DNA from: a virus
IMG/VR virus record: IMGVR_UViG_3300029794_000022
Strand: one strand, 5' to 3'
DNA length: 34,983 nucleotides
Of the stretch, positions 1-34,983 are shown in pieces. Within the stretch, counting starts at the first letter, position 1. Each line of letters begins with the position of its first letter. The notes under the pieces were generated by a model. That model was not told the origin of the DNA and made no database searches. It saw nothing but the letters and a program-made list of their open reading frames with translations. The translations under genes and the position numbers were made by a program.

Positions 1-123
1 TAATTGTCGCCTTCGCTCGCAACCCGATATTATCCTCATGCAGCTCTAGGTTGCCCTGCTTGGTCGAGCCAAGATCGCGATTAGTGTCGTGATTCAGCAA
101 GACATGGATATCGTCGTTGCGTT
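1..123. repeat. Terminal direct repeat, identical to 34861-34983; indicates a circularly closed or terminally redundant genome with a 34,860-bp unit
   Basis: Base-by-base identity of 1-123 with 34861-34983. Confidence 0.95.
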
Positions 124-1528: not shown

Positions 1529-3208
1529 CTAGATTACTTGGATGCCGACCCCACCATCACCCAGCACATAATCCTGCTGCAGCAAATACATAGCGTTAAT
1601 CAAGCTGACAACCATATCAACCTTGCCCTTCGACTTCTTCTTGTGGACATAAAGATTCATGTTGCTATCGTAAGTGCATCGGGCATTCTGGAAGTTAATC
1701 TCAAGCAAGCGGTTCGGCGCATACGCGAATTCTCCCTTGAGTATCTTCTCCTTGAGCCATTTGGTAGGCGGGTGGAGCACCGAGCTATGCTGTCGAATCT
1801 CTACAGTGTTGTATCCCGCTTCGTCCAGCTTCTGCGCGGTTGACATGGCGTTCCAGCGGTCATACCCGATTGCCTGAATCTTCACGCCATACTTTTCCTC
1901 GATACCCATGATGAAGTCTTCGACTGCCTTGTAGTCGATGATCTTGTCACCGCAAGCAATGCACTCCCCGGTACGGATATATTCGCGGTAGTCGATTTTC
2001 TCATAGGCGTTCTTCTCATCGATACGATCAGCCGGAATAAAGGCGATGGAATCGGCAAGCACAGTGCCATCGTCATCCACCGACACCATTGACACGCTCG
2101 TATTGTCGTTGGTCATCGACAAGTCAAGACCAAGATACACAGTGCGCCCAGCCCAATCGATCTGAGACACCTTGCACGCCTGCACATCAGCCACGTCAAT
2201 ATAAGTCTCCGTGCCCTGACCCTGATAGATGATGTTGCAGTGTTTGGTGAGGAAATTCTCGCGAGCCGATTCCACCGCGATCGCATAAGCCCGCTTCTTT
2301 TTCAGGTCTTCCCAGATCTCCGGAATCTCCAAGGACACCGGATTAGCTTGACGCAATACCAAGTCATCCGTCATCCAGTCCTTTGTCTCGTCAGGCTCAT
2401 AAAGCAGCGAGAATCGCGTCTCGTCCTCAATCAAGCCATCAAGCACCTTCTTGCAATATCCGACTTCATCCTCAAAAGGATTGTCAATAGTCGGGTATTT
2501 GGTGCTGATGATAAAGCCCAATTTATTCAGGATATTCAGCTGACCAGACCTCATTGCTTCGATAGCATATGATGTCGGCAGTGCCCCCACCTCGTCTGCA
2601 CAGAAGGCGTTAGGCAAGCGTCCATCCATACGTGACGTGGAATAGCTCAGGGGTATGTACTGCGTACTCGTCGGCTTGAAGGTGATGCTGTCACGAAGGA
2701 TCTTGAAGCGCAGCGAATCACCGAAGCTATACACGTCCGGTGAGCTTTTAAGCGTCTCCGATATTGCTTCACGCACCTCACGGCTCAACGTGCCATCTGG
2801 AGCCACAGAGTAAAATTTACTAAAACGCGGCTCAGTCAAGAACAGCAAGATGAAGATGGTCGCAATAGTGTACGTTTTGAAGTTCTTGCGGCTAATCTCA
2901 AGCAAACATGTCTCGTACTTGCGCTTCTTCGGGTTATCCCTGCGCACAGTGCAAAGCGTAGCCGTGTAAAACAGCCACTGATATCCGGTAGTGCAATCGT
3001 ACAATGATTGCCCGGCACGCAAGCCCTTCGGCATACGCAAAACCTTGAGAATCGCGTACAGTTGCTTAACCTTGCGGTTGCTTACCTTGTATGTTTCGTC
3101 CTTGCCATCGCAAATAGACATCCACTGTTCCATTTGTTTCCGCACGTAATTCGGTGTGGTCGGCTTATCAATGCACTGCAAGCAATACTCGTAAGCCTTA
3201 TTCATCAT
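1529..3208 (-). CDS. terL: Terminase large subunit
   Basis: About 560-aa ORF upstream of portal with a Walker-B-like ADEVG and a nuclease C-terminal half. ATG ATG at 3208/3205 overlaps the end of the methyltransferase gene; the GTG at 3217 is also possible. Confidence 0.85.
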   Translation of the reverse strand: MMNKAYEYCLQCIDKPTTPNYVRKQMEQWMSICDGKDETYKVSNRKVKQLYAILKVLRMPKGLRAGQSLYDCTTGYQWLFYTATLCTVRRDNPKKRKYETCLLEISRKNFKTYTIATIFILLFLTEPRFSKFYSVAPDGTLSREVREAISETLKSSPDVYSFGDSLRFKILRDSITFKPTSTQYIPLSYSTSRMDGRLPNAFCADEVGALPTSYAIEAMRSGQLNILNKLGFIISTKYPTIDNPFEDEVGYCKKVLDGLIEDETRFSLLYEPDETKDWMTDDLVLRQANPVSLEIPEIWEDLKKKRAYAIAVESARENFLTKHCNIIYQGQGTETYIDVADVQACKVSQIDWAGRTVYLGLDLSMTNDNTSVSMVSVDDDGTVLADSIAFIPADRIDEKNAYEKIDYREYIRTGECIACGDKIIDYKAVEDFIMGIEEKYGVKIQAIGYDRWNAMSTAQKLDEAGYNTVEIRQHSSVLHPPTKWLKEKILKGEFAYAPNRLLEINFQNARCTYDSNMNLYVHKKKSKGKVDMVVSLINAMYLLQQDYVLGDGGVGIQVI

Positions 3209-4070
3209 CACGATCACCCGCCATCACCGAATCGTAAAACCGCTCTTGCACGAACAGACACTCCGCGACACGCTTACGGTTTGAATGGTCAGCAAGCGAG
3301 CGAGAATCTCTCCGCGCAACCTCAACACACCCTTTCGGACATATGTACTCTGAAACGAACACCGGAAAATCAACCTCAGCCAGCCAATCCTCGAAAGCAT
3401 CATAATCAAAACCGGCACCATACTGGCTTATCGTCGTACCCTTATATGGCGGGTCGGCATACACAGTGGAACCATCAGACACATCAAAATCACGATAATC
3501 GCACCGCGACGTTTCAAGCTCAGCAGACGGGCACGCACAATGTATGTCCTGCAGACGGTTAGCACGCTCAATAGCCTGTAATTCCGACACGTTGCGGCCA
3601 ACTTTACCCCCGCACTGCAAATGGCTGGAAAGCGCCCTGATAAACACCTTGTACGCCGCGTACCTGTCAGCAACCGTCGCGCCGTACATCATGCGTTCAG
3701 CCGCAATGCACACATCCTCACTCTCGCTGCTGTAAATATAGCTCCTCTGGTCATTCCCAAAACTGTAAACAAGCCGGGAAAGCGTATCGGTTGATGCCTT
3801 GAATTGCTCGCGAGTAAGCGGAAAACCTGACACGTCAATATCGCCATTGACAGCCCTAGCGAAAACCTCCGGCGCATCAGAGATATCATTCGCAATCACA
3901 CGCTTGAATTTCCCGGAAAGCATCGCGCAATGCGAGACAGCACAACCGCCAGCGAACAAGTCAACAAGCGTATCAGCTGCAGGAAGACTATCTACAACCC
4001 ACTCAGCAATACGATTCTTACTGCCCTTATACGGCAGTCCATACGCCTTACGCCTCTTCATCGTCATCAT
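3198..4070 (-). CDS. Dam-like (D12 class, alpha-type) N6-adenine DNA methyltransferase
   Basis: N-terminal PYKGSKNRIA, motif I DLFAGGCAVS, motif IV YADPPY. Overlaps the terS 3' end and the terL 5' end. Confidence 0.8.
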   Translation of the reverse strand: MMTMKRRKAYGLPYKGSKNRIAEWVVDSLPAADTLVDLFAGGCAVSHCAMLSGKFKRVIANDISDAPEVFARAVNGDIDVSGFPLTREQFKASTDTLSRLVYSFGNDQRSYIYSSESEDVCIAAERMMYGATVADRYAAYKVFIRALSSHLQCGGKVGRNVSELQAIERANRLQDIHCACPSAELETSRCDYRDFDVSDGSTVYADPPYKGTTISQYGAGFDYDAFEDWLAEVDFPVFVSEYICPKGCVEVARRDSRSLADHSNRKRVAECLFVQERFYDSVMAGDRDDE

Positions 4071-4434
4071 CCTCAGCCTCTCCGTTAATCAGCGCAAGCA
4101 GCGGGTCAACATCATCACCGTCACGTTCAGCGTCAGACTTGCCGAACCCTTGGATAATACGCATAAGCGTCGTTACAGTTCGATTGGCGGAATCCGTGGT
4201 CTTATTGTATTCGGTCACAGCCGGATTGCTGTAAAGGTTCTTGCGTCCCTTCACGTATTCCTTCTTGACAAGCATCCCACTCTCGTCCATGCTCTTTTCA
4301 AGCTCAGAGAGAATCTTAATCTGCACCTGATACCGCTTGAAAGTCGTGACGAAGAAGAAGTTTGTCTGGACGCCCGTTTCTTCAGCAATGCGCAGGATTT
4401 CGACTGCCTGCTCCTGTAGATTCATCTTTGCCAT
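4048..4434 (-). CDS. terS: Terminase small subunit, P27-like family
   Basis: MAKMNLQEQAVEILRIAEETGV...YQVQIKILSELEK... pattern. GGAGGTA sits 6 nt upstream of the ATG at 4434; the track ORF starts earlier, at 4461. Confidence 0.75.
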   Translation of the reverse strand: MAKMNLQEQAVEILRIAEETGVQTNFFFVTTFKRYQVQIKILSELEKSMDESGMLVKKEYVKGRKNLYSNPAVTEYNKTTDSANRTVTTLMRIIQGFGKSDAERDGDDVDPLLALINGEAEDDDDEEA

Positions 4435-4496
4435 ATTAGCTACCTCCGTTTTCTGTGGCATCGCTTAGAATCTTCGTGTAGGGATTCGCGTCCCAC

Positions 4497-5747
4497 TCAA
4501 TCCTCATCGGTCTTTCCAAGGTTCGCGACTATGCCGCGTTCACGTTCCGACAACTCCCAGACATACTCCAGGTCATCCGTGTTGGCCGCTTCAGCTTCAC
4601 GCTTGGCCGCTTCAGCTTCACGCTTGGCCGCTTCAGCTTCACGCTTGGCCGCTTCAGCTTCACGCGCCGCACTCTCCGAGAGCAAGAACCCATTGCCGTA
4701 AATGGCCTTCCCCACAGACCTCTGCGCGTCCAAAGCGGAAATACGCGCCGCGTCCTCACGGCGAAGTTTGAAATCCACGCCACGCGAACACCAGAGAGAG
4801 ACCATAGCGGAAGTAATCACCTCAGCCGGATACGAATATTTCGGCAGCTGCTTCTTCTCAAGATTAGCGTCATTCGCCTGCCGCAAAGCAACCGCGAGCG
4901 CAGGTGCCGTCCTCACAATCAAATCTGGCTCCAAATTCGTTACGAACGACGTACCCACTACCGCGCCATTCTCGTAAGTGATACCACCGCCACACGGAAT
5001 GTAACACACGCCATCAACCCGACCGAACAGGGTCAACGTAGGTGCGAAAAGGAAAAACCGCACGCCATGCTCCTGATAGAACCTCTGGATCTCCGCAAGA
5101 ATCGAAAACGGCGGATTATCCACGACGCAACAGCCCGGCGCGTAAACCTCCGAACGATAATCACCGCCCGGATAAAACGGGCGCATCATGTCCGCGCGAT
5201 CAACACCATACTCCTGCGACACCCACGCGGCCACAGCCTCATAAACATTATCAGGCGTATAACAGTCATCTGTAGTCTTCTTCGGCTTGAACTTGTCAAC
5301 GAACTCGTTATATTCATCGTTGCCGTCCTCGTGGTCATCCCCGTCCTTCGTGCCACGGTCGAACCATCCATCGGTACTCAACTCAAACCCAAAAGAACCC
5401 ATGTCAATGTCCGGGATCTCCCCAAGCTCAATATCAAGCTTCCCCAGATCCCATTCCGCAAGCTCCCCGACACGATTGTCTGCAAGCCGGAACGCCTTCA
5501 CCTGCTCTGGGGACAAATCATCTGCCACGATAACCGGCACGGAATCCAAACCGAGCTTCTTCGCAGCCTTCAACCGAGTGTGGCCCGCGACAATCACACC
5601 ATCGGAATCGACCACAATAGGCACCTTGAAACCGAATTCCTTGATGCTAGCGGCTACAGCATCCACCGCACCATCATTAAGACGCGGATTATTCACATAC
5701 GGGATCAAACCCGCCACATTCCTGTACTCCACTTTCAGCTTGCTCAT
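4497..5747 (-). CDS. ParB-like N-terminal nuclease domain fused to a putative N6-adenine methyltransferase-like domain
   Basis: N-terminus PYVNNPRLN...GHTRLKAAKKLG (ParB/Srx fold motif). Central DCYTP...VVDNPPFS (NPPF motif IV). C-terminal (EAEAAKR)x4. RBS GAAAGGA lies before the ATG at 5747. Confidence 0.65.
   Translation of the reverse strand: MSKLKVEYRNVAGLIPYVNNPRLNDGAVDAVAASIKEFGFKVPIVVDSDGVIVAGHTRLKAAKKLGLDSVPVIVADDLSPEQVKAFRLADNRVGELAEWDLGKLDIELGEIPDIDMGSFGFELSTDGWFDRGTKDGDDHEDGNDEYNEFVDKFKPKKTTDDCYTPDNVYEAVAAWVSQEYGVDRADMMRPFYPGGDYRSEVYAPGCCVVDNPPFSILAEIQRFYQEHGVRFFLFAPTLTLFGRVDGVCYIPCGGGITYENGAVVGTSFVTNLEPDLIVRTAPALAVALRQANDANLEKKQLPKYSYPAEVITSAMVSLWCSRGVDFKLRREDAARISALDAQRSVGKAIYGNGFLLSESAAREAEAAKREAEAAKREAEAAKREAEAANTDDLEYVWELSERERGIVANLGKTDED
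4584..4667. repeat. In-frame 21-bp tandem repeat x4 (3 perfect and 1 near-perfect) encoding EAEAAKR heptads
   Basis: Unit ggccgcttcagcttcacgctt at 4584, 4605, 4626 and 4647. Confidence 0.95.
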
Positions 5748-5790
5748 GAATATCAATCCTTTCTATATCGTTTACTTGGCACCTAAATTT

Positions 5791-5850
5791 TTATCAACCG
5801 TTATCACGCTTTATTCAAGTGTATCAACGGTTTTCAGCGCATTATCAAGG
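5791..5850. repeat. Six consecutive 10-bp-phased TTATCA-like boxes; candidate terminase or ParB recognition and bending array (cosB/pac-like)
   Basis: ttatcaaccg / ttatcacgct / ttattcaagt / gtatcaacgg / ttttcagcgc / attatcaagg, each starting exactly 10 bp apart. Confidence 0.5.
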
Positions 5851-5938
5851 GGTTTTCCAAAAAAAGAACGTAAAACAGATATTTTGTATTTAGAGGTGGC
5901 GTGTTGGTGTTGATTGAGCCGAGTTTAATTGGCGGTCT

Positions 5939-5951
5939 CCCCCGGGGGGGG
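5939..5951. other. C5G8 tract (CCCCCGGGGG palindrome plus GGG) 4 nt downstream of the HNH stop; candidate cos cleavage region
   Basis: ggcggtctCCCCCGGGGGGGGatg; the only such G/C palindrome in the packaging-gene upstream region. Confidence 0.3.
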
Positions 5952-5954
5952 ATG

Positions 5955-6323
5955 TTAGTTTTCGTCGTGTCGTTTTTGCGCGAGTTGTTTGAGGTAGGTT
6001 GAGTCTATCTGCCCTGCGTCTGCTTGCTTGTGATGTGGCACGCATAGGCAGATCAGGTTATCGTCATCGGTTAGCAGGTCTGGATTCGTGTTGAGCTTGA
6101 CAATATGGTGTACTTCCAGTCCATTGGTGGTGATGATGCCCTTAGCCTTGCATACCTCGCACATGTAGTTCGCGTCCTGTCTGATCTGCTCGCGCTTGCG
6201 TTGCCACCGATACGTGTTGCGGAGCTTGTCTATGTCGGTCTTCCGGTAGTGTCTTGCCGGTCTCTTCGGACAAGTGGCATTGATGTCGTGCATCCTGCCG
6301 CAGTATCCACATGCTTTAAGCAT
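5955..6323 (-). CDS. HNH endonuclease, terminase-associated type
   Basis: CGYCGR...EVHHIVKL...NLICLCVPHHKQ motifs. AAGGAGGT sits 7 nt before the ATG at 6323; the track start at 6353 lacks an RBS. Confidence 0.85.
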   Translation of the reverse strand: MLKACGYCGRMHDINATCPKRPARHYRKTDIDKLRNTYRWQRKREQIRQDANYMCEVCKAKGIITTNGLEVHHIVKLNTNPDLLTDDDNLICLCVPHHKQADAGQIDSTYLKQLAQKRHDEN

Positions 6324-6398
6324 TCCAGTCACCTCCTTGTCTAGCACTATCATAGTGTGTTTCTTGAGGGAGTGAGTGAGCTTAGGTGGAGAGAGTAA

Positions 6399-6768
6399 GC
6401 CTTAAGAGCTACAGGCAATTGCTTGTAGGTTAAGGCTTATTGACGGTTTCCGTCGGTCGGTCGTTCGCCCGGCTTCGGTCATAAGAGTGTTGCATTGCTA
6501 ACACTGGTGCGGCATACCCCAGCAGGTCGCATTTACATCTTTGATGTGATGGTGTCGGCACCCCGGTTATTCCACCATCGCCTGTTGGGTCGGTTGGACT
6601 AGCACCTCTAACGTGTGCCTCAACCAGTGTGAGTGGTCGTCCCGTTATCCGAGCTTGGGATATTGCTAGGAAGTTCTCGTGCCTTCGCACCCAAGTATGT
6701 GGTATACTTGGCTTTGTTGAATCGTTATGGCTCCATCATAGCACATTGTGTTGTGATGGAGCTTTTTT
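6399..6768 (+). ncRNA. Candidate structured non-coding RNA of unassigned family; 5' end uncertain
   Basis: Nested helices 6399-6436, 6486-6505, 6506-10/6602-06, 6518-26/6581-89, 6535-47, 6548-54/6573-79 and 6691-6711. Several G.U pairs exist only on the plus strand. Ends in a strong plus-strand terminator. No ORF with an RBS. Confidence 0.45.
6730..6768 (+). terminator. Intrinsic terminator, plus-strand oriented
   Basis: 15-bp stem 6730-6744/6748-6762 with 2 G.U pairs that are valid only on the plus strand, then T6 at 6763-6768. Confidence 0.8.
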
Positions 6769-6783
6769 AATGTTTCGACGTAT

Positions 6784-7011
6784 CTACTTTGCCGTGTCTT
6801 CGGTTTTGGCTGTTGCGTGGCTAATACCTATGAGCGAACCGATAAGCACGCCGATCGCGTTGAGTGTTGTCACGATTGCGTCGGTATCATGCCAGCCCCA
6901 GACTGCGCCGATCACGCCGATGAAGGTGGCGATTGCCGGAAAGGCTATCAGTCCAGCCCACTTGAGTACTTCGTATGCTTTGTCGTTGAGCAAATATGTT
7001 TTGTTGTCCAT
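6784..7011 (-). CDS. Holin, phage phi LC3 family-like
   Basis: 75 aa; KAYEVLKWAGLIAFPAIATFIGVIGAVWGW...AIGVLIGSLIGIS matches the phiLC3-type holin pattern; two TM segments; RBS GAGGAAG. Confidence 0.7.
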   Translation of the reverse strand: MDNKTYLLNDKAYEVLKWAGLIAFPAIATFIGVIGAVWGWHDTDAIVTTLNAIGVLIGSLIGISHATAKTEDTAK

Positions 7012-7026
7012 TGGTCTTCCTCGCTT

Positions 7027-7101
7027 TCAGTGTTTGCCGACTTTTGTGATGATGATGAGTGTTACGCAGATGATGCTTGTGATTGCGATTGCGGTATTCA
7101 T
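7027..7101 (-). CDS. 24-aa hydrophobic micro-ORF (MNTAIAITSIICVTLIIITKVGKH)
   Basis: GAAAGGA lies 7 nt upstream of the ATG; single TM-like peptide; the stop lies 13 nt before the holin start codon, just upstream of the holin RBS. Too short for the ORF track. Confidence 0.4.
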   Translation of the reverse strand: MNTAIAITSIICVTLIIITKVGKH

Positions 7102-7128
7102 GTTTTTATCCTTTCTGTTGGTTCTATT

Positions 7129-7503
7129 CTAGTCTGATAGATGCACTACGGCTTTGCGCTGTGCAACATCCATGTTGGCTTGGGCTTCATGCACTTTATC
7201 CCGCGCCGCCTCAACATTTCCGTTGAGTTTGCCGTGCTGCAAGGCGATTAAACAGATTTCGTTTGCCGCTAGGCTCGCGTCGATACCTTTGAGCATGGCC
7301 TCATAAAGGTATTGTCGCTCGTTGTGTTGTTGGTCTCTTTTCGCGTCGATTATCGCCTGTTGTGCGCGGTATTGTGCCTCCTGCTGGTCGCGTTGTTTCA
7401 TCCGATTGTTGCCCACGCAGGTGATGATCGCGACAAAGATACTGGACACCGCCGCGCAACCGCTCGTGACTATTGCGACGATTACTTCCGTGCTTAGCAT
7501 CAT
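7129..7503 (-). CDS. N-terminally membrane-anchored coiled-coil protein; possibly lysis-associated
   Basis: AGAGGGGAA precedes ATG ATG at 7503. MMLSTEVIVAIVTSGCAAVSSIFVAIITCVG is a TM segment, followed by a Q/A/E-rich coiled coil. Confidence 0.55.
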   Translation of the reverse strand: MMLSTEVIVAIVTSGCAAVSSIFVAIITCVGNNRMKQRDQQEAQYRAQQAIIDAKRDQQHNERQYLYEAMLKGIDASLAANEICLIALQHGKLNGNVEAARDKVHEAQANMDVAQRKAVVHLSD

Positions 7504-7638
7504 TTCCCCTCTAATCACTCCAGTTTTTCTATTGTGATTATAGCGTGATACTAGCGGGATTCGCGGGACAGTTCGTGCTATGATTTGCTTGTACTCATTT
7601 TGAGTATCCTTTCGGTTTGGTTGGTGATTGGGCATGGC

Positions 7639-8175
7639 TTAATGGCCATGCCCTTTCCTTTTACTTCTGATGCAGTTCACGTGATAGTACTCGCTGTCGC
7701 GATCTAGCAGGTTATTCACCATCAACTTATTTCTCAGTGCGATTGCTGATTTTTCAGCTTCATGAATATCGCTGTAGTAGCCACCATGATACTGCTTCCC
7801 TTTTACTCTAACTTTCACCCGCCACTTATTCTGGGCAGCAACCCAGAACACGCCGCGAACGCCGGTTTTACTATCCTTCCGAGCGCCCCTGTTTTCACTA
7901 TTCTGTTGATTGGTTACTAATTGCAAATGCGCAGGATTTACACACTGCCTATTGTGGCAAATGTGATCGATCTGGAGTTCAGCAGGACACTCCCCATATG
8001 CGAGCGCATACGCAAACCTATGAGCACGCACAGATTTCCCATGGAAGCACATAGACCCATATCCGTTTACGAAAGTAGCAGCCGTCCACGTCCAGCATTC
8101 ATTGCTTTTGTCGACTTTTTCCCAGAACCGCGCGATATCTTCGTCAGTCATGTCAGCACGGCGTATTATAATCAT
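7639..8175 (-). CDS. HNH (HNH_3-type) homing endonuclease with C-terminal AP2 DNA-binding domain
   Basis: IDHICHNRQCVNPAHL plus TGVRGVFWVAAQNKWRVKVRVKGKQYHGGYY (AP2-like); AAGGAG RBS. Confidence 0.8.
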   Translation of the reverse strand: MIIIRRADMTDEDIARFWEKVDKSNECWTWTAATFVNGYGSMCFHGKSVRAHRFAYALAYGECPAELQIDHICHNRQCVNPAHLQLVTNQQNSENRGARKDSKTGVRGVFWVAAQNKWRVKVRVKGKQYHGGYYSDIHEAEKSAIALRNKLMVNNLLDRDSEYYHVNCIRSKRKGHGH

Positions 8176-8201
8176 TGGTGTACTCCTTATAGGTATTGAT
8201 T

Positions 8202-8241
8202 GAGCTGGACTACTGCTAATAGTCCAGCTCGTTTTATATAT
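8202..8241 (+). terminator. Intrinsic-terminator-like hairpin oriented on the plus strand
   Basis: Perfect 11-bp stem 8202-8212/8220-8230, 7-nt loop, then gTTTTATATAT. On the minus strand no U tract follows it. Confidence 0.55.
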
Positions 8242-8607
8242 CTAGTGTATCTCAGGCTCTGGAGTGTCCCCCGCCGTCCCGTCATCCCAAAGAAAACATC
8301 GCCCCCAACATGCGTGGTCTACCGCGATCTTGTGCGGGTCATTGTAGCTGTGGACTAGCCAGCCGTGCTTGTAGGCTTCAGCTGGGTGCATGTGTACGTA
8401 TCCGTGACAGCCTTGTGTCCCACTACCGCAGAGCCAGATCAGGTTGGACGCTTCGTGTAAGCCGCTCCAACCGTGTGACCTCATGCGTCGATGATGGAGT
8501 GAGGCCATCGATCCGTATAGTGCCTTGCCGCATCGGACGCAGCATTGCATGTCCCTTCTGGCACAGATGGATCGTGTCTCTGGTGTCGGGTTCGTGGCCT
8601 TGCTCAT
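8242..8607 (-). CDS. HNH endonuclease, actinophage-like small type
   Basis: CCVRCGK...SLHHRRMRS...NLIWLCGSGTQGCHGYVH motif arrangement. Confidence 0.7.
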   Translation of the reverse strand: MSKATNPTPETRSICARRDMQCCVRCGKALYGSMASLHHRRMRSHGWSGLHEASNLIWLCGSGTQGCHGYVHMHPAEAYKHGWLVHSYNDPHKIAVDHACWGRCFLWDDGTAGDTPEPEIH

Positions 8608-24020: not shown

Positions 24021-25091
24021 TCAGTCGATTCTCAGCACCTGCCCGACACGAATCAGATTAGCGTTCTTGATTCCGTTAATCTGCTGGAGCCGCTGCCAAG
24101 TCGTACCGTACCGAGCGGCAATACCGGAGAGCGTATCACCGGCACGCACCGTGTAAGTCCGCGACTGGTGCCCACCGCCCAGCTTCTGGTTGACGATAGA
24201 CTGCACCGCATTATAGCGATTGCCAAGCGCACGCTTACGATTCTCGCCATCCCCGTACTTTCCGGCGATCACTTCGTCGGCAAGCTGAGCGTCGGTCTTA
24301 CCGGCGAGCGGATCAGCAAGCCGCTGATTGACAATAGCCTGAACAGCGGCATAGCGATTACCGAGTGCCTTCTTACGTGCATCGCCATCACCGTACTTTC
24401 CGGCAATCACTTCGTCGGCAAGCTGATTATCGGACTTGCCAGCGAGCGGGTCAACCGGCTTAGGTGTCGGAGTAGCCGCGCCGGAAGCACCAGCGTACTT
24501 ACGCCAAGCGTTCGCATCACCATAGAACTTGTCAAGGTCGAGATTGCCATTCCAGCCGGTAAGCCGTCCAGCAGACGAATACTGACGGATAGCACAAGAA
24601 TAGGCTCCCTCATTCCACGGCTGATCCTGATAGCCGGTCGCGCTCATATCGGCATACTGGGCGATCCACAAACCGCAATCATGACGCTTGGCAACAGCAG
24701 CCGTCTGGGTATAAGCGGAAGCCTGCACGTAGATAAGCGGCTTGATGCCGGTACGCTCGATAACGCGGGAGACAAGCGCATCAAGGTATGTGTAGTTCCC
24801 CCACGCCCTATTAGAACCGCCCTCCCAGTCGATGCACAGGATACCCCTACCCAGATAACCCTTGATATTGTCCACGTAGTAGTCAGCTTCCGCCACAGCG
24901 CCGGAGCCGTTCACGTAATGATACGTGCCCCAGCACTTGCCAAGCTTAATGCACTGCTGCACAGCGCGGTCGCAATCAGGATTGACGTAATTAACGCCTT
25001 CCGTCGCCTTGACGATAACAAAATCGCAAGGGACTACGCTAAGGTCAATCCCCGCTTGATACGAACTCACATCGATTCCTCGAAGTGACAT
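24021..25091 (-). CDS. Endolysin: GH25 muramidase, two CW_7-like repeats and a C-terminal LysM
   Basis: RGIDVSSYQ...KATEG...DWE (GH25). Duplicated DPLAGK(S/T)[58 protein letters not shown] (LysM). GAAGGAG RBS at 25091. Confidence 0.85.
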
Positions 25092-25219
25092 AATATCACT
25101 CTCCTTCATATCTTTTAAGCACATGTCCTCTGCACGTGCGTTGAAACCATTTATTGTTATTTTACTTGGATTCCAGAGCCGCAATGCGGTCTATCGCCGC
25201 TTGTCAGTCGATGCCATCA

Positions 25220-34456: not shown

Positions 34457-34983
34457 TTAATCCTCCTTTAATTCGGCAATGAGCTTTTCCCATTTGCCGT
34501 AATCAATTGTACTATTTTTTTCTTCGGAATTATCGCGCGTATTCTGCGGTTCTTCCTCAGTCTTTTCAACCGGTTTATCTGCCAGTTTTTCTTCGGTGAC
34601 TTCCGGCTTATCATCGGTCATCGCTTCACCGGTATTAAGATGCACCGTGTCCCCGTCAGCATCTCGTGCTTGGATCAGCGTACCATCGTATGCCGGAACC
34701 TTCGAGCGGTCAAGGATTGACACCTCGTAGAGATCAAGGTCTTTCACATCGCGGGTCATCATGCCGTTCTCATCGTGCGTATCCACGTCCCTATCGGTAA
34801 AGCCGAAGCTCCACCCCACAAGGTCGCCGCGCTTGGCTTTCTCGATCACATCGGCATCGGTAATTGTCGCCTTCGCTCGCAACCCGATATTATCCTCATG
34901 CAGCTCTAGGTTGCCCTGCTTGGTCGAGCCAAGATCGCGATTAGTGTCGTGATTCAGCAAGACATGGATATCGTCGTTGCGTT
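34457..34983 (-). CDS. HK97-family prohead protease, C-terminal part; the 5' end is at 262 after circular wrap
   Basis: LLNHDTNRDLGSTKQGNLELHEDNIGLRAKA...GDLVGWSFGF is a protease core motif; acidic C-terminal tail. Confidence 0.85.
   Translation of the reverse strand, partial: RNDDIHVLLNHDTNRDLGSTKQGNLELHEDNIGLRAKATITDADVIEKAKRGDLVGWSFGFTDRDVDTHDENGMMTRDVKDLDLYEVSILDRSKVPAYDGTLIQARDADGDTVHLNTGEAMTDDKPEVTEEKLADKPVEKTEEEPQNTRDNSEEKNSTIDYGKWEKLIAELKED
34861..34983. repeat. Second copy of the 123-bp terminal repeat
   Basis: Identical to 1-123. Confidence 0.95.

What the first reader, a model, noticed from the sequence alone, without database searches (positions are those of the whole stretch)
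6324..6783. A 460-bp non-coding gap carrying a plus-strand structured RNA candidate, antisense to the whole surrounding operon
This is the largest non-coding stretch in a genome where most neighbouring genes overlap or abut.

It ends in a strong intrinsic terminator at 6730-6768: a 15-bp stem followed by T6. That terminator is oriented on the plus strand, opposite to every flanking gene.

Upstream of it, a nested set of helices can be drawn:
- 6399-6436, a bipartite hairpin of 7+8 bp
- 6486-6505
- 6506-10 with 6602-06, enclosing 6518-26 with 6581-89
- inside that, hairpins 6535-47 and 6548-54/6573-79
- 6679-90
- 6691-6711, 8 bp

G.U pairs at 6414/6423, 6522/6585, 6739/6753 and 6741/6751 would become A.C mismatches on the minus strand, which supports a plus-strand transcript.

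Neither track ORF in the gap has an RBS. I see no tRNA or tmRNA signature and could not assign a known family.

A plus-strand RNA here would be fully complementary to the read-through message linking the holin cluster to the HNH and terminase genes. It could therefore gate late or packaging gene expression.
Basis: partly seen in the sequence, partly recalled or inferred. Interest (0 to 1): 0.75.

Follow-up and report, generated by a model that had tools for sequence, protein, structure and literature searches.

The report
New large structured RNA in gut phages
The 460-base gap holds a gene for a roughly 410-nucleotide, intricately folded non-coding RNA that matches no described RNA family, recurs almost unchanged in two unrelated groups of human-gut phages, and has no known function.

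Summary
Window 6360-6768 (+) is a sharply bounded block of about 410 nt ending in an intrinsic terminator. I found 24 distinct full-length copies, all in human-gut phage or metagenome contigs, in three genomic contexts with unrelated flanks.

On their alignment:
- A 15-helix model has 93% of cells paired, against 35-49% when partners are slid.
- 41 pairs show compensatory changes, against 10-13 slid and 20±2 shuffled.
- G·U cells outnumber A·C cells 364 to 89, which fixes the plus strand.

No ORF is conserved. No Rfam 15 family, tRNA or tmRNA matches. Close relatives (L003-L005) have the same holin-like and HNH genes about 70 nt apart without the block, so it is an accessory, moron-like insert.

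It is antisense to its neighbours in every context. A co-oriented terminator inside an operon would be polar, so this orientation is expected anyway and is not evidence for antisense control.

Best reading: a stand-alone RNA acting in trans through its fold (about 0.55). No transcript has been observed, no clear promoter was found, and the function is unknown.

The parts
6360..6768 (+). Conserved RNA block of about 409 nt. This is the inferred RNA gene, from the 5' conservation boundary (TTTCTTGAGGGAG) to the end of the terminator U-tract.
   Evidence: nhmmer finds only full-length matches (model positions 1-2 to 403-408) in 24 distinct sequences. The flanks are unrelated between contexts.
6360..6394 (+). 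P1 (6360-65 with 6389-94), enclosing a purine-rich, Shine-Dalgarno-like segment GAGGGAGKGAGYGAG.
   Evidence: Invariant, so neither supported nor refuted by covariation. Includes two invariant U·G pairs.
6396..6439 (+). P2 (6396-6405 with 6430-39) plus the inner P2a (6409-15 with 6422-28).
   Evidence: P2 is invariant. P2a has compensatory changes in 4 of its 5 inner pairs.
6441..6481 (+). P3/P4 domain. P4 is 6452-55 with 6470-73. There are two candidate closing helices: local 6441-44 with 6478-81, or long-range 6442-43 and 6447-51 with 6669-73 and 6677-78.
   Evidence: The local helix shows C-G changing to U-A in 3 sequences. The long-range helix is 97-100% paired but shows one-sided changes only. 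Unresolved.
6486..6505 (+). P5 hairpin (6486-92 with 6499-6505).
   Evidence: 5 of 7 pairs have compensatory changes; 98% of cells paired.
6506..6509 (+). PK1 5' strand (GGUG), pairing with the P9b loop at 6559-6562 (CACC). This is a pseudoknot.
   Evidence: G-C in 16 sequences against A-U in 6 at one pair, and a second pair with G-C changing to A-U in L064; 97% paired. The rival partner 6602-06 has 8 mismatches in 24.
6510..6596 (+). Core domain: P6 (6510-13 with 6593-96), P7 (6518-27 with 6580-89), P8 (6535-39 with 6543-47), P9 (6548-54 with 6573-79) and P9b (6555-58 with 6563-66), with the bulge UUAUUC.
   Evidence: P7 has 5, P8 has 4 and P9 has 4 pairs with compensatory changes. P6 and P9b are invariant with G·U pairs.
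6603..6660 (+). P10 (6603-05 with 6613-15), P11 (6622-26 with 6634-38) and P12 (6640-43 with 6657-60).
   Evidence: P11 has 4 covarying pairs. P12 shows U-A changing to C-G at its outer pair. P10 is invariant.
6679..6711 (+). P13 (6679-82 with 6687-90) and the variable-length hairpin P14 (6691-98 with 6704-11).
   Evidence: P13 has 3 covarying pairs. P14 folds as a hairpin of 8-9 bp, extended by an internal insertion hairpin in some members, in most of the 24 sequences.
6729..6768 (+). Intrinsic terminator: 15-16 bp stem at 6730-44 with 6748-62, then U-tract at 6763-68.
   Evidence: Found by the terminator scan. 6 pairs have compensatory changes. Every one of the 24 members has a hairpin of -16.6 to -29.5 kcal/mol, followed by a U-rich tract in nearly all of them.
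6345..6357 (.). 13-bp palindrome CACTATCATAGTG between the HNH RBS and the RNA 5' end. It carries -10-like hexamers on both strands: TATCAT and CATAGT on plus, TATGAT on minus.
   Evidence: Read from the sequence. The consensus promoter scan found none here. This is a candidate promoter region only.
5955..6323 (-). Flanking HNH endonuclease gene (122 aa), head-to-head with the RNA.
   Evidence: PHROG 144 and Pfam HNH. Present 75-80% identical in the relatives that lack the RNA.
6784..7011 (-). Flanking Dp-1-family holin-like gene (75 aa), convergent with the RNA. Its stop codon lies 16 nt from the U-tract.
   Evidence: Pfam PF16938, E = 1.7e-19. About 65-80 nt from the HNH gene in L003-L005.

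Best explanation
Window 6360-6768 (+) is a self-contained gene for a non-coding RNA of about 410 nt that belongs to a previously undescribed family. The RNA folds into some 15 helices with at least one pseudoknot and ends at its own intrinsic terminator.

It is an accessory, moron-like module. It has been dropped into intergenic spacers of at least two unrelated lineages of human-gut phages and is missing from close relatives.

It lies antisense to the surrounding operon, probably because a co-oriented terminator would cut off the genes downstream.

I think it most likely acts in trans through its three-dimensional fold, for example by binding or sequestering a host or phage factor or by assembling with itself, rather than by pairing with the message on the opposite strand.

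Shown: the conserved fold, the folded strand, the terminator, the absence of coding potential, modularity and accessory status, and the absence of a linked protein partner.

Inferred: that it is transcribed starting near 6360, that it acts in trans, and what it binds.

The confidence of 0.55 is for the whole statement including trans action. That it is a real structured-RNA gene of a new family I put at about 0.9.
For: **Family and borders.** There are 24 distinct full-length copies, and conservation starts and stops at the same bases in three contexts.

**Fold.**
- 112 modelled pairs, 93.4% of cells paired, against 35-49% with slid partners.
- 41 pairs with double changes, against 10-13 slid and 19.9±2.2 in shuffles (0 of 500 shuffles reach the observed value).
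- RNAalifold independently finds 28 compensatory pairs.
- The pseudoknot PK1 covaries.

**Strand.** 364 G·U cells against 89 A·C cells. Folding z-score is -7.5 on the plus strand and -3.4 on the minus strand. A terminator hairpin is present in all 24 members, with a U-rich tract after it in nearly all.

**Non-coding.** No ORF is conserved in position or length; L020 and L022 have nothing longer than 35 codons.

**Constraint.** The block is more conserved than the flanking genes at the DNA level: 85% against 77% and 79% (window against L027), and 80% against 74% and 63% (window against L064). Many unpaired junction bases are invariant.

**Accessory and modular.** L003-L005 have the holin-like and HNH genes about 65-80 nt apart without the block. 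Eight phages with a related DnaC-like gene lack it within the flanks retrieved, up to 10 kb on each side.

**No partner or target found.**
- No reverse transcriptase, IscB, TnpB or Cas gene in the genome, among the roughly 30 larger window ORFs scanned.
- The genes shared between the two phage groups are replication and repair genes, and relatives that lack the RNA also carry the DnaC-like one.
- No complementarity to the rest of the genome beyond chance.
Against: - No transcript data exist.
- No convincing sigma-70 promoter lies upstream. The window group has only -10-like hexamers. The 30-kb group has a C-rich stretch with no -10 element, so the 5' end might come from processing of a longer transcript.
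- Trans action is an argument by exclusion; no binding partner is known.
- The family is narrow: 24 sequences at a mean column identity of 77%, falling into a few clades. Several covariation events are therefore shared by descent, and some helices (P1, P2, P6, P10) never vary.
- In the 30-kb phages the RNA lies inside a non-coding region of about 1.4 kb next to the replication genes. That could point to a local, cis role there.
Confidence: 0.55

Rival explanations
1. Cis-antisense gate. The plus-strand RNA pairs with the read-through transcript on the minus strand, or its transcription collides with it. This triggers RNase III cleavage or transcriptional interference and so sets how much HNH and terminase message is made. 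In the 30-kb phages the target would be the replication message instead.
For: The RNA is antisense to the genes on both sides in all three contexts. There is no minus-strand terminator in the gap, so operon transcripts must cross it. Temperate phages use antisense RNAs in this way (lambda OOP, P22 sar, P1 c4; from general knowledge).
Against: - Complementarity to its own locus is automatic and needs no conserved fold. Yet 15 helices, a pseudoknot and invariant loops are conserved across contexts whose flanking genes differ.
- The orientation is equally explained by avoiding a polar terminator.
- Relatives do without it.
- In the 30-kb group the inferred replication promoter lies between the RNA and the replication genes. 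Transcripts from that promoter would not contain the complementary sequence.
Confidence: 0.2
2. Replication-linked RNA. It would be a primer or a copy-control countertranscript belonging to the origin region, as ColE1 RNA I/RNA II and plasmid countertranscripts are.
For: - In the 30-kb phages it lies in a non-coding region of about 1.4 kb directly upstream of the replication initiator and DnaC-like genes. That region has strongly C-rich, G-poor flanks and iterons (5 copies of GATTTTGCGGCCAGGKTACCAT).
- The two RNA-bearing phage groups share a related replication module (DnaC-like 66%, initiator 43% amino-acid identity).
Against: - In the window group it is 7 kb from the replication genes, and no iterons or C-rich flanks accompany it.
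- Phages with the same DnaC-like gene (83% identical, including L005's contig) lack it.
- It lies upstream of the inferred replication promoter, not within a replication leader.
Confidence: 0.08
3. Part of a longer transcript. It would be a cis-acting leader or attenuator, or a processed product, whose terminator conditionally controls genes downstream on the same strand.
For: - No promoter abuts the block in the 30-kb group.
- A variable C-rich leader precedes the block and could pair with its purine-rich 5' segment.
- In L021 a second terminator follows about 560 nt downstream on the same strand.
- An ORF-like conserved peptide recurs about 320 nt downstream.
Against: - In the window group nothing on the plus strand follows the terminator; every gene for more than 10 kb downstream is on the minus strand.
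- The downstream ORF has no family match and varies in length.
- The block alone is what is conserved between contexts.
Confidence: 0.07
4. A DNA-level site (cos or pac, origin, or recombination site), or the decayed remnant of a protein gene.
For: It lies next to the packaging module in the window. It is a large gap in a tightly packed genome.
Against: - Compensatory changes preserve helices that contain many G·U pairs on one strand only. Duplex DNA sites do not behave this way.
- The two host phage groups appear to have different terminases, so a shared cos site is unlikely.
- A better cos candidate lies at 5757-5954.
- No ORF is conserved, and no PHROG or Pfam family matches the gap ORFs.
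Confidence: 0.03

Closest known systems
GOLLD and ROOL (large ornate RNAs carried by Lactobacillales and other phages or prophages)
   Same: Phage-borne, stand-alone, large, many-helix non-coding RNAs with pseudoknots. No obligatory neighbouring protein gene. Sporadic distribution. Function unknown.
   Different: No sequence or structure match: cmscan against Rfam 15, which should include these families, finds nothing at gathering score or at E≤10. Smaller, about 410 nt against roughly 580-800 nt. Not next to tRNA genes. Known so far only from about two dozen gut phage contigs.
Phage morons (accessory transcription units inserted between genes that are adjacent in relatives), including prophage sRNA morons
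   Same: Absent from close relatives whose flanking genes abut. Carries its own terminator. Sits in a zone rich in other optional genes (three HNH genes, a stray holin-like gene).
   Different: The cargo is a 410-nt pseudoknotted RNA rather than a protein or a short Hfq-type sRNA. Its own promoter is not demonstrated. Its base composition does not stand out from the genome.
Antisense RNAs of temperate phages (lambda OOP, P22 sar, P1/P7 c4, P4 CI)
   Same: A terminator-ended or processed RNA encoded antisense within a lytic operon of a temperate phage.
   Different: Those RNAs are roughly 60-200 nt with one to three hairpins and are tied to one specific target gene. This one is 410 nt with about 15 helices and is conserved across contexts with unrelated neighbours.
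Type I toxin-antitoxin antisense RNAs (RatA/txpA, SR4/bsrG, par RNA II/fst)
   Same: In the window group the RNA converges on a small membrane (holin-like) protein gene, with the 3' ends 16 nt apart.
   Different: The pairing is not conserved. L064 has an HNH/AP2 gene there, and the 30-kb phages have no such gene. It is far longer and more structured than known antitoxin RNAs.
IscB/HEARO omega-RNA and other guide-RNA scaffolds
   Same: Size range. A sharply bounded scaffold preceded by variable sequence. A terminator at the 3' end. HNH genes nearby.
   Different: No IscB, IsrB or TnpB ORF anywhere in the genome. No match to any Rfam model, which should include HEARO. The adjacent HNH is a 122-aa packaging-type protein on the other strand and is also present in relatives that lack the RNA.

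Membership tests
Any Rfam 15 family (including GOLLD, ROOL, HEARO, raiA, OLE, RNase P, tmRNA, 6S, SRP, group I/II introns, riboswitches and small ribozymes, as far as these are in the library) | Covariance-model score at or above the family's gathering threshold | tested here: not met
   0 matches in the whole window. At E≤10 only tfoR at 13.5 bits against a threshold of 70. In seven other members only scattered noise: tfoR 16.2 bits, plus miRNA and snoRNA models.
tRNA / tmRNA | Cloverleaf or tRNA-like domain detectable by ARAGORN | tested here: not met
   0 genes in the window and in 12 related loci.
Phage moron | Absent from close relatives in which the two flanking genes are adjacent | tested here: met
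   In L003-L005 the holin-like gene ends about 65-80 nt before the HNH start. In the window, L001 and L002 the distance is 460 nt.
Phage moron | Own terminator | tested here: met
   Terminator at 6729-6768, covarying; the hairpin is present in all 24 members.
Phage moron | Own promoter | tested here: inconclusive
   No consensus sigma-70 site found. Only -10-like hexamers at 6348-6356 in the window group.
Cis-antisense regulator of a specific neighbouring gene | Conserved association with the same target gene on the opposite strand | tested here: not met
   The neighbours differ: holin-like and HNH (window group); HNH/AP2 and HNH (L064); RusA-like resolvase and the replication operon (30-kb group).
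Type I toxin-antitoxin | Small hydrophobic toxin gene convergent with or overlapping the RNA in all members | tested here: not met
   Present only in 4 window-group members.
IscB/TnpB guide-RNA (omega-RNA) system | Adjacent RuvC-containing effector ORF (IscB, IsrB or TnpB) | tested here: not met
   No such ORF in the 35-kb genome. The neighbours are annotated as HNH (122 aa), holin-like and ParB-like.
Plasmid-type replication countertranscript / ColE1 RNA I | Complementary to the leader of the replication mRNA or to the pre-primer | tested here: inconclusive
   In the 30-kb group it lies upstream of the inferred replication promoter (TTGATG-17-TATACT). In the window group it is 7 kb from the replication genes. 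Read-through transcripts were not testable.
Protein-coding gene or its remnant | ORF conserved in frame and position, or a match to a protein family | tested here: not met
   ORFs differ in strand, start and length among the 24 members. No PHROG or Pfam hit for the gap ORFs.

The most novel reading that the evidence does not exclude
The block is a new class of large functional RNA that phages trade among themselves. It could be a catalytic RNA, a guide or scaffold RNA working with a nuclease encoded elsewhere, an RNA-only assembly like ROOL and GOLLD, or an RNA decoy or sponge against a host defence. In this reading it works entirely by its pseudoknotted fold and is expressed from the prophage as an RNA 'moron'.
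Probability: 0.2. Interest if true: 0.85.

Novelty: new variant of a known kind. Interest (0 to 1): 0.68.

Why it matters
Bacterial and phage non-coding RNAs longer than 400 nt with complex conserved folds are rare. The few known classes (RNase P, tmRNA, group I and II introns, OLE, GOLLD, ROOL, omega-RNAs) have each turned out to be enzymes, guides or unusual assemblies.

This one is well enough supported by covariation to justify experiments now. It is compact, has defined ends, and moves as a unit between unrelated gut phages. That implies a function that does not depend on the genes around it.

If it proves to be an anti-defence decoy, a ribozyme or a self-assembling RNA, it would add a new RNA tool to phage biology. 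If it proves to be only an antisense brake, it would still be an unusually elaborate one.

The family label is new: no Rfam or literature match. The general kind, an orphan structured RNA carried as an optional phage gene, has precedents. That is why I rate it a new variant rather than categorically new.

Tried and rejected
- **Rfam.** Searched at gathering score and at permissive thresholds, on the window and on seven other members. Nothing.
- **BLAST.** The gap against 50,697 GenBank phages and against PLSDB plasmids, and the 30-kb context against phages. No homologue.
- **Species-representative genomes (GTDB).** Two degenerate patterns were tried. The first found nothing. The second gave 26 hits, mostly Lentzea, which do not match the family profile and are chance. 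So no prophage copy and no host assignment.
- **Host inference from proteins.** TerL is 71% identical to Lactobacillus delbrueckii phages, but the endolysin and tail proteins are only 28-40% identical to phages of assorted hosts. The integrase occurs only on 20-50 kb contigs with no sign of an integrated prophage in a longer contig. Host unresolved.
- **Long-range helix 6498-6508 with 6623-6633**, from the single-sequence MFE fold. Not conserved; P5 and P11 covary instead.
Rejected in favour of PK1.
- **Helix 6506-09 with 6638-41.** It competes with P12, and P12 has the better covariation.
- **RNAalifold with ribosum scoring.** It gave a different global pairing of the 5' purine-rich segment that conflicts with the covarying P13. 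Not adopted.
- **Complementary targets elsewhere in the genome.** Counts equal those for shuffled sequence.
- **Type I toxin-antitoxin idea**, with the holin-like gene as toxin. The association is not conserved.
- **Small RHH-like gene downstream in the 30-kb phages as a partner.** No Pfam support, and it is absent from the window.
- **Link to the shared replication module.** Relatives with that module lack the RNA.
- **Literature.** Searches by topic and by sequence fragments found no description. A 2023 catalogue of more than 10,000 anonymous candidate phage RNAs (PMC10690425) could contain it, but its supplementary lists are not held.
- **Full-length covariance model.** Not built, because the alignment exceeds the tool's 400-column limit.

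Full report
**Setting.** The window is a complete circular assembly of a temperate siphovirus-like phage. Its first 123 nt repeat at the end, so the true length is about 34,860 bp. GC content is 51.7% and nearly all genes are on the minus strand.

Reading along the minus strand, the order is:
- serine integrase and an HTH repressor
- Gam, Erf, SSB, dUTPase and a RusA-like resolvase
- replication initiator and DnaC-like loader
- small genes, then a YqaJ exonuclease
- two HNH genes, a 168-aa protein of unknown function and a 75-aa Dp-1-family holin-like gene (7011-6784)
- the 460-nt gap
- an HNH gene (6323-5955), then a 198-nt gap
- a ParB-like gene, TerS, a methyltransferase, TerL and the portal gene

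The endolysin is elsewhere, at 24021-25184.

The gap is the largest non-coding stretch in the genome. A plus-strand terminator, a 16-bp stem followed by T6, lies at 6729-6768. The plus strand of the gap folds to -187.7 kcal/mol against -143.1±5.9 for shuffles (z = -7.5). The minus strand gives only -136.4 against -115.5 (z = -3.4). No tRNA or tmRNA was found. No Rfam 15 family matches at gathering score in the window, and only noise appears at E≤10.

**Homologues.** Using the HNH protein as anchor, two near-identical phages (L001, L002) carry the same gap at 90-92% identity. Three further relatives (L003-L005, HNH 75-80% identical) have the holin-like gene only about 65-80 nt from the HNH gene, with a single unrelated hairpin between them. 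The element is therefore an insertion, or it has been lost in those relatives.

Scans of IMG/VR and of metagenome contigs with exact or degenerate patterns from the gap recovered more copies. A profile search over everything fetched shows 24 distinct sequences, every one full length. All come from human-gut viral or metagenome contigs. Two pattern scans of species-representative genomes gave only chance hits. GenBank phages and PLSDB plasmids hold no copy.

**Borders and contexts.** In a joint alignment, conservation begins abruptly at TTTCTTGAGGGAG (window 6360) and ends with the terminator U-tract (6768). The flanks are unrelated between contexts. There are three contexts:
- **Window group** (window, L024, L023, L027): between the holin-like and HNH genes.
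- **L064**: between an HNH/AP2 gene and the HNH gene.
- **A separate group of phages of about 30 kb**: inside a non-coding region of about 1.4 kb between a RusA-like gene and an operon of two small genes, a replication initiator and a DnaC-like loader.

In the 30-kb group the block is flanked by strongly C-rich, G-poor stretches on the RNA strand and, further on, by iterons. In all three contexts the block is antisense to the genes on both sides.

The two phage groups otherwise share only replication and repair genes. Eight phages with related DnaC-like genes, one of them on the same contig as the RNA-less L005, have no copy in the flanks retrieved. The RNA is thus optional and is not tied to that module.

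**Structure.** RNAalifold on 22 sequences predicted 102 pairs, 28 of them with compensatory changes. I then fixed a 15-helix model (P1-P15, coordinates listed under parts) and counted it on the 24-sequence alignment A3:
- 93.4% of 2,670 cells form standard pairs, against 35-49% when the 3' partners are slid by 1-3 columns.
- 41 pairs show changes on both sides, against 10-13 slid and 19.9±2.2 in column shuffles (0 of 500 shuffles reach the observed value).

P2a, P5, P7, P8, P9, P11, P12, P13 and the terminator all covary. P1, P2, P6, P9b and P10 never vary, so they are neither supported nor contradicted. P14 is a hairpin of variable length, extended by an internal insertion hairpin in some members.

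A scan for further stacked covarying pairs found a pseudoknot, 6506-6509 (GGUG) with the P9b loop 6559-6562 (CACC). It has G-C in 16 sequences and A-U in 6 at one position, plus a second G-C to A-U change in L064. How the P3/P4 region and the purine-rich 5' segment close is unresolved; the candidates are.

**Strand, coding potential and constraint.**
- Paired cells include 364 G·U against 89 A·C, so the plus strand is the one that folds.
- All 24 members end in a hairpin of -16.6 to -29.5 kcal/mol, followed by a U-rich tract in nearly all.
- No ORF is conserved in strand, position or length, and the gap ORFs match no protein family.
- The block is more conserved at the DNA level than the protein genes beside it: 85% against 77% and 79% for L027, and 80% against 74% and 63% for L064.
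- Many junction and loop bases are invariant.

**What could not be shown.** There are no expression data, and I found no convincing promoter. The consensus scan finds none on the RNA strand.

In the window group a 13-bp palindrome (6345-6357) carries -10-like hexamers on both strands. The minus-strand TATGAT recurs in L027 and L064 and may serve the HNH gene.

In the 30-kb group the block is preceded by about 100 nt of variable C-rich repeats. The only good promoter nearby (TTGATG-17-TATACT with an extended -10) points away from the block, towards the replication genes. The RNA's 5' end could therefore be a weak or atypical start at about 6360, or a processing site.

**Interpretation.** The data establish a new, self-contained RNA module under purifying selection for a complex fold.

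Its antisense orientation does not by itself argue for antisense control. A module that carries a strong terminator can sit inside an operon only in the orientation where the terminator does not stop the operon. Complementarity to its own locus needs no conserved fold, and the neighbours differ between contexts.

No partner protein is linked to it, and no complementary target stands out in the genome. I therefore favour a trans-acting RNA that works through its fold, carried as a moron-like accessory gene (about 0.55).

The rivals are:
- an antisense or interference gate on read-through transcripts (about 0.2)
- a replication-linked RNA, suggested by the origin-like surroundings in the 30-kb phages (about 0.08)
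- a leader or processed piece of a longer transcript (about 0.07)
- a DNA-level site or dead gene (about 0.03), largely excluded by the one-strand covariation

**Comparison with known systems.** The nearest in kind are the orphan large phage RNAs GOLLD and ROOL, but there is no homology. This RNA is also smaller and not associated with tRNA genes. It fits the moron definition except that its promoter is unproven. It fails the defining features of the other candidates:
- type I antitoxin RNAs, because the toxin association is not conserved
- omega-RNA systems, because there is no effector ORF
- gene-specific antisense regulators, because the neighbours vary

Literature searches by topic and by sequence found no description. 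An anonymous entry in the 2023 catalogue of candidate phage RNAs cannot be excluded.

**Verdict.** The finding is real and worth experiments. It is a well-supported new family of large structured phage RNA. Interest 0.68.

Noticed in passing
window 1-123 and 34861-34983: The first 123 nt are identical to the last 123 nt. The window is a circular assembly of a complete phage genome of about 34,860 bp.
   Followed up: partly
window 5757-5954: A second non-coding gap of 198 nt, between the HNH and ParB-like genes. It holds direct and inverted repeats (TATCAACCGTTATCA / TATCAACGGTTTTCA at 5792-5836) and a C5G8 run at 5938-5950. It is a plausible cos or terminase-binding region, given the HNH-TerS-TerL arrangement.
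   Followed up: no
window 6784-7011 (-): A Dp-1-family holin-like gene sits alone next to the packaging module, 17 kb from the endolysin (24021-25184). It is conserved next to the HNH gene in relatives with and without the RNA.
   Followed up: partly
window 5955-8607: Three HNH endonuclease genes lie within 2.7 kb: 5955-6323, 7639-8175 (with an AP2 domain) and 8242-8607. This looks like a plasticity zone of optional or mobile genes just upstream of the packaging genes.
   Followed up: no
L012 about 3620-4980 (and the equivalent in L013, L021, L022, L030): The 30-kb phages have a non-coding region of about 1.4 kb around the RNA. On the RNA strand the flanks are C-rich and G-poor (up to 35 C against 5 G per 60 nt). 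There are iterons: 5 copies of GATTTTGCGGCCAGGKTACCAT and 3-4 copies of AGAGTATCCCT. Two AGCATCGAA repeats overlap the inferred replication promoter. The region looks like an origin or control region.
   Followed up: partly
L012 3826-4041 (-), L021 about 5750-5960 (-), and others: An ORF-like conserved peptide (AMEEASKTSGQTPWLHVTLTEAIKARL...) recurs about 320 nt downstream of the RNA on the same strand in the 30-kb phages. Its length varies and it has no Pfam match, so whether it is a real gene is unclear.
   Followed up: partly
L021 5706-5736 (-): A second strong terminator (14-bp stem) lies on the RNA strand about 560 nt downstream of the RNA's own terminator. Read-through or a second transcript may end there.
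   Followed up: no
window 6345-6357: A perfect 13-bp palindrome, CACTATCATAGTG, lies between the HNH RBS and the RNA 5' end. It could be an operator, or overlapping divergent -10 elements.
   Followed up: partly
window 1529-3217 (-): TerL is 71% identical in amino acids to Lactobacillus delbrueckii group-b phages (c5, LL-Ku, phiLdb). The endolysin and tail proteins have only distant and mixed relatives. The genome is mosaic and the host is undetermined.
   Followed up: partly
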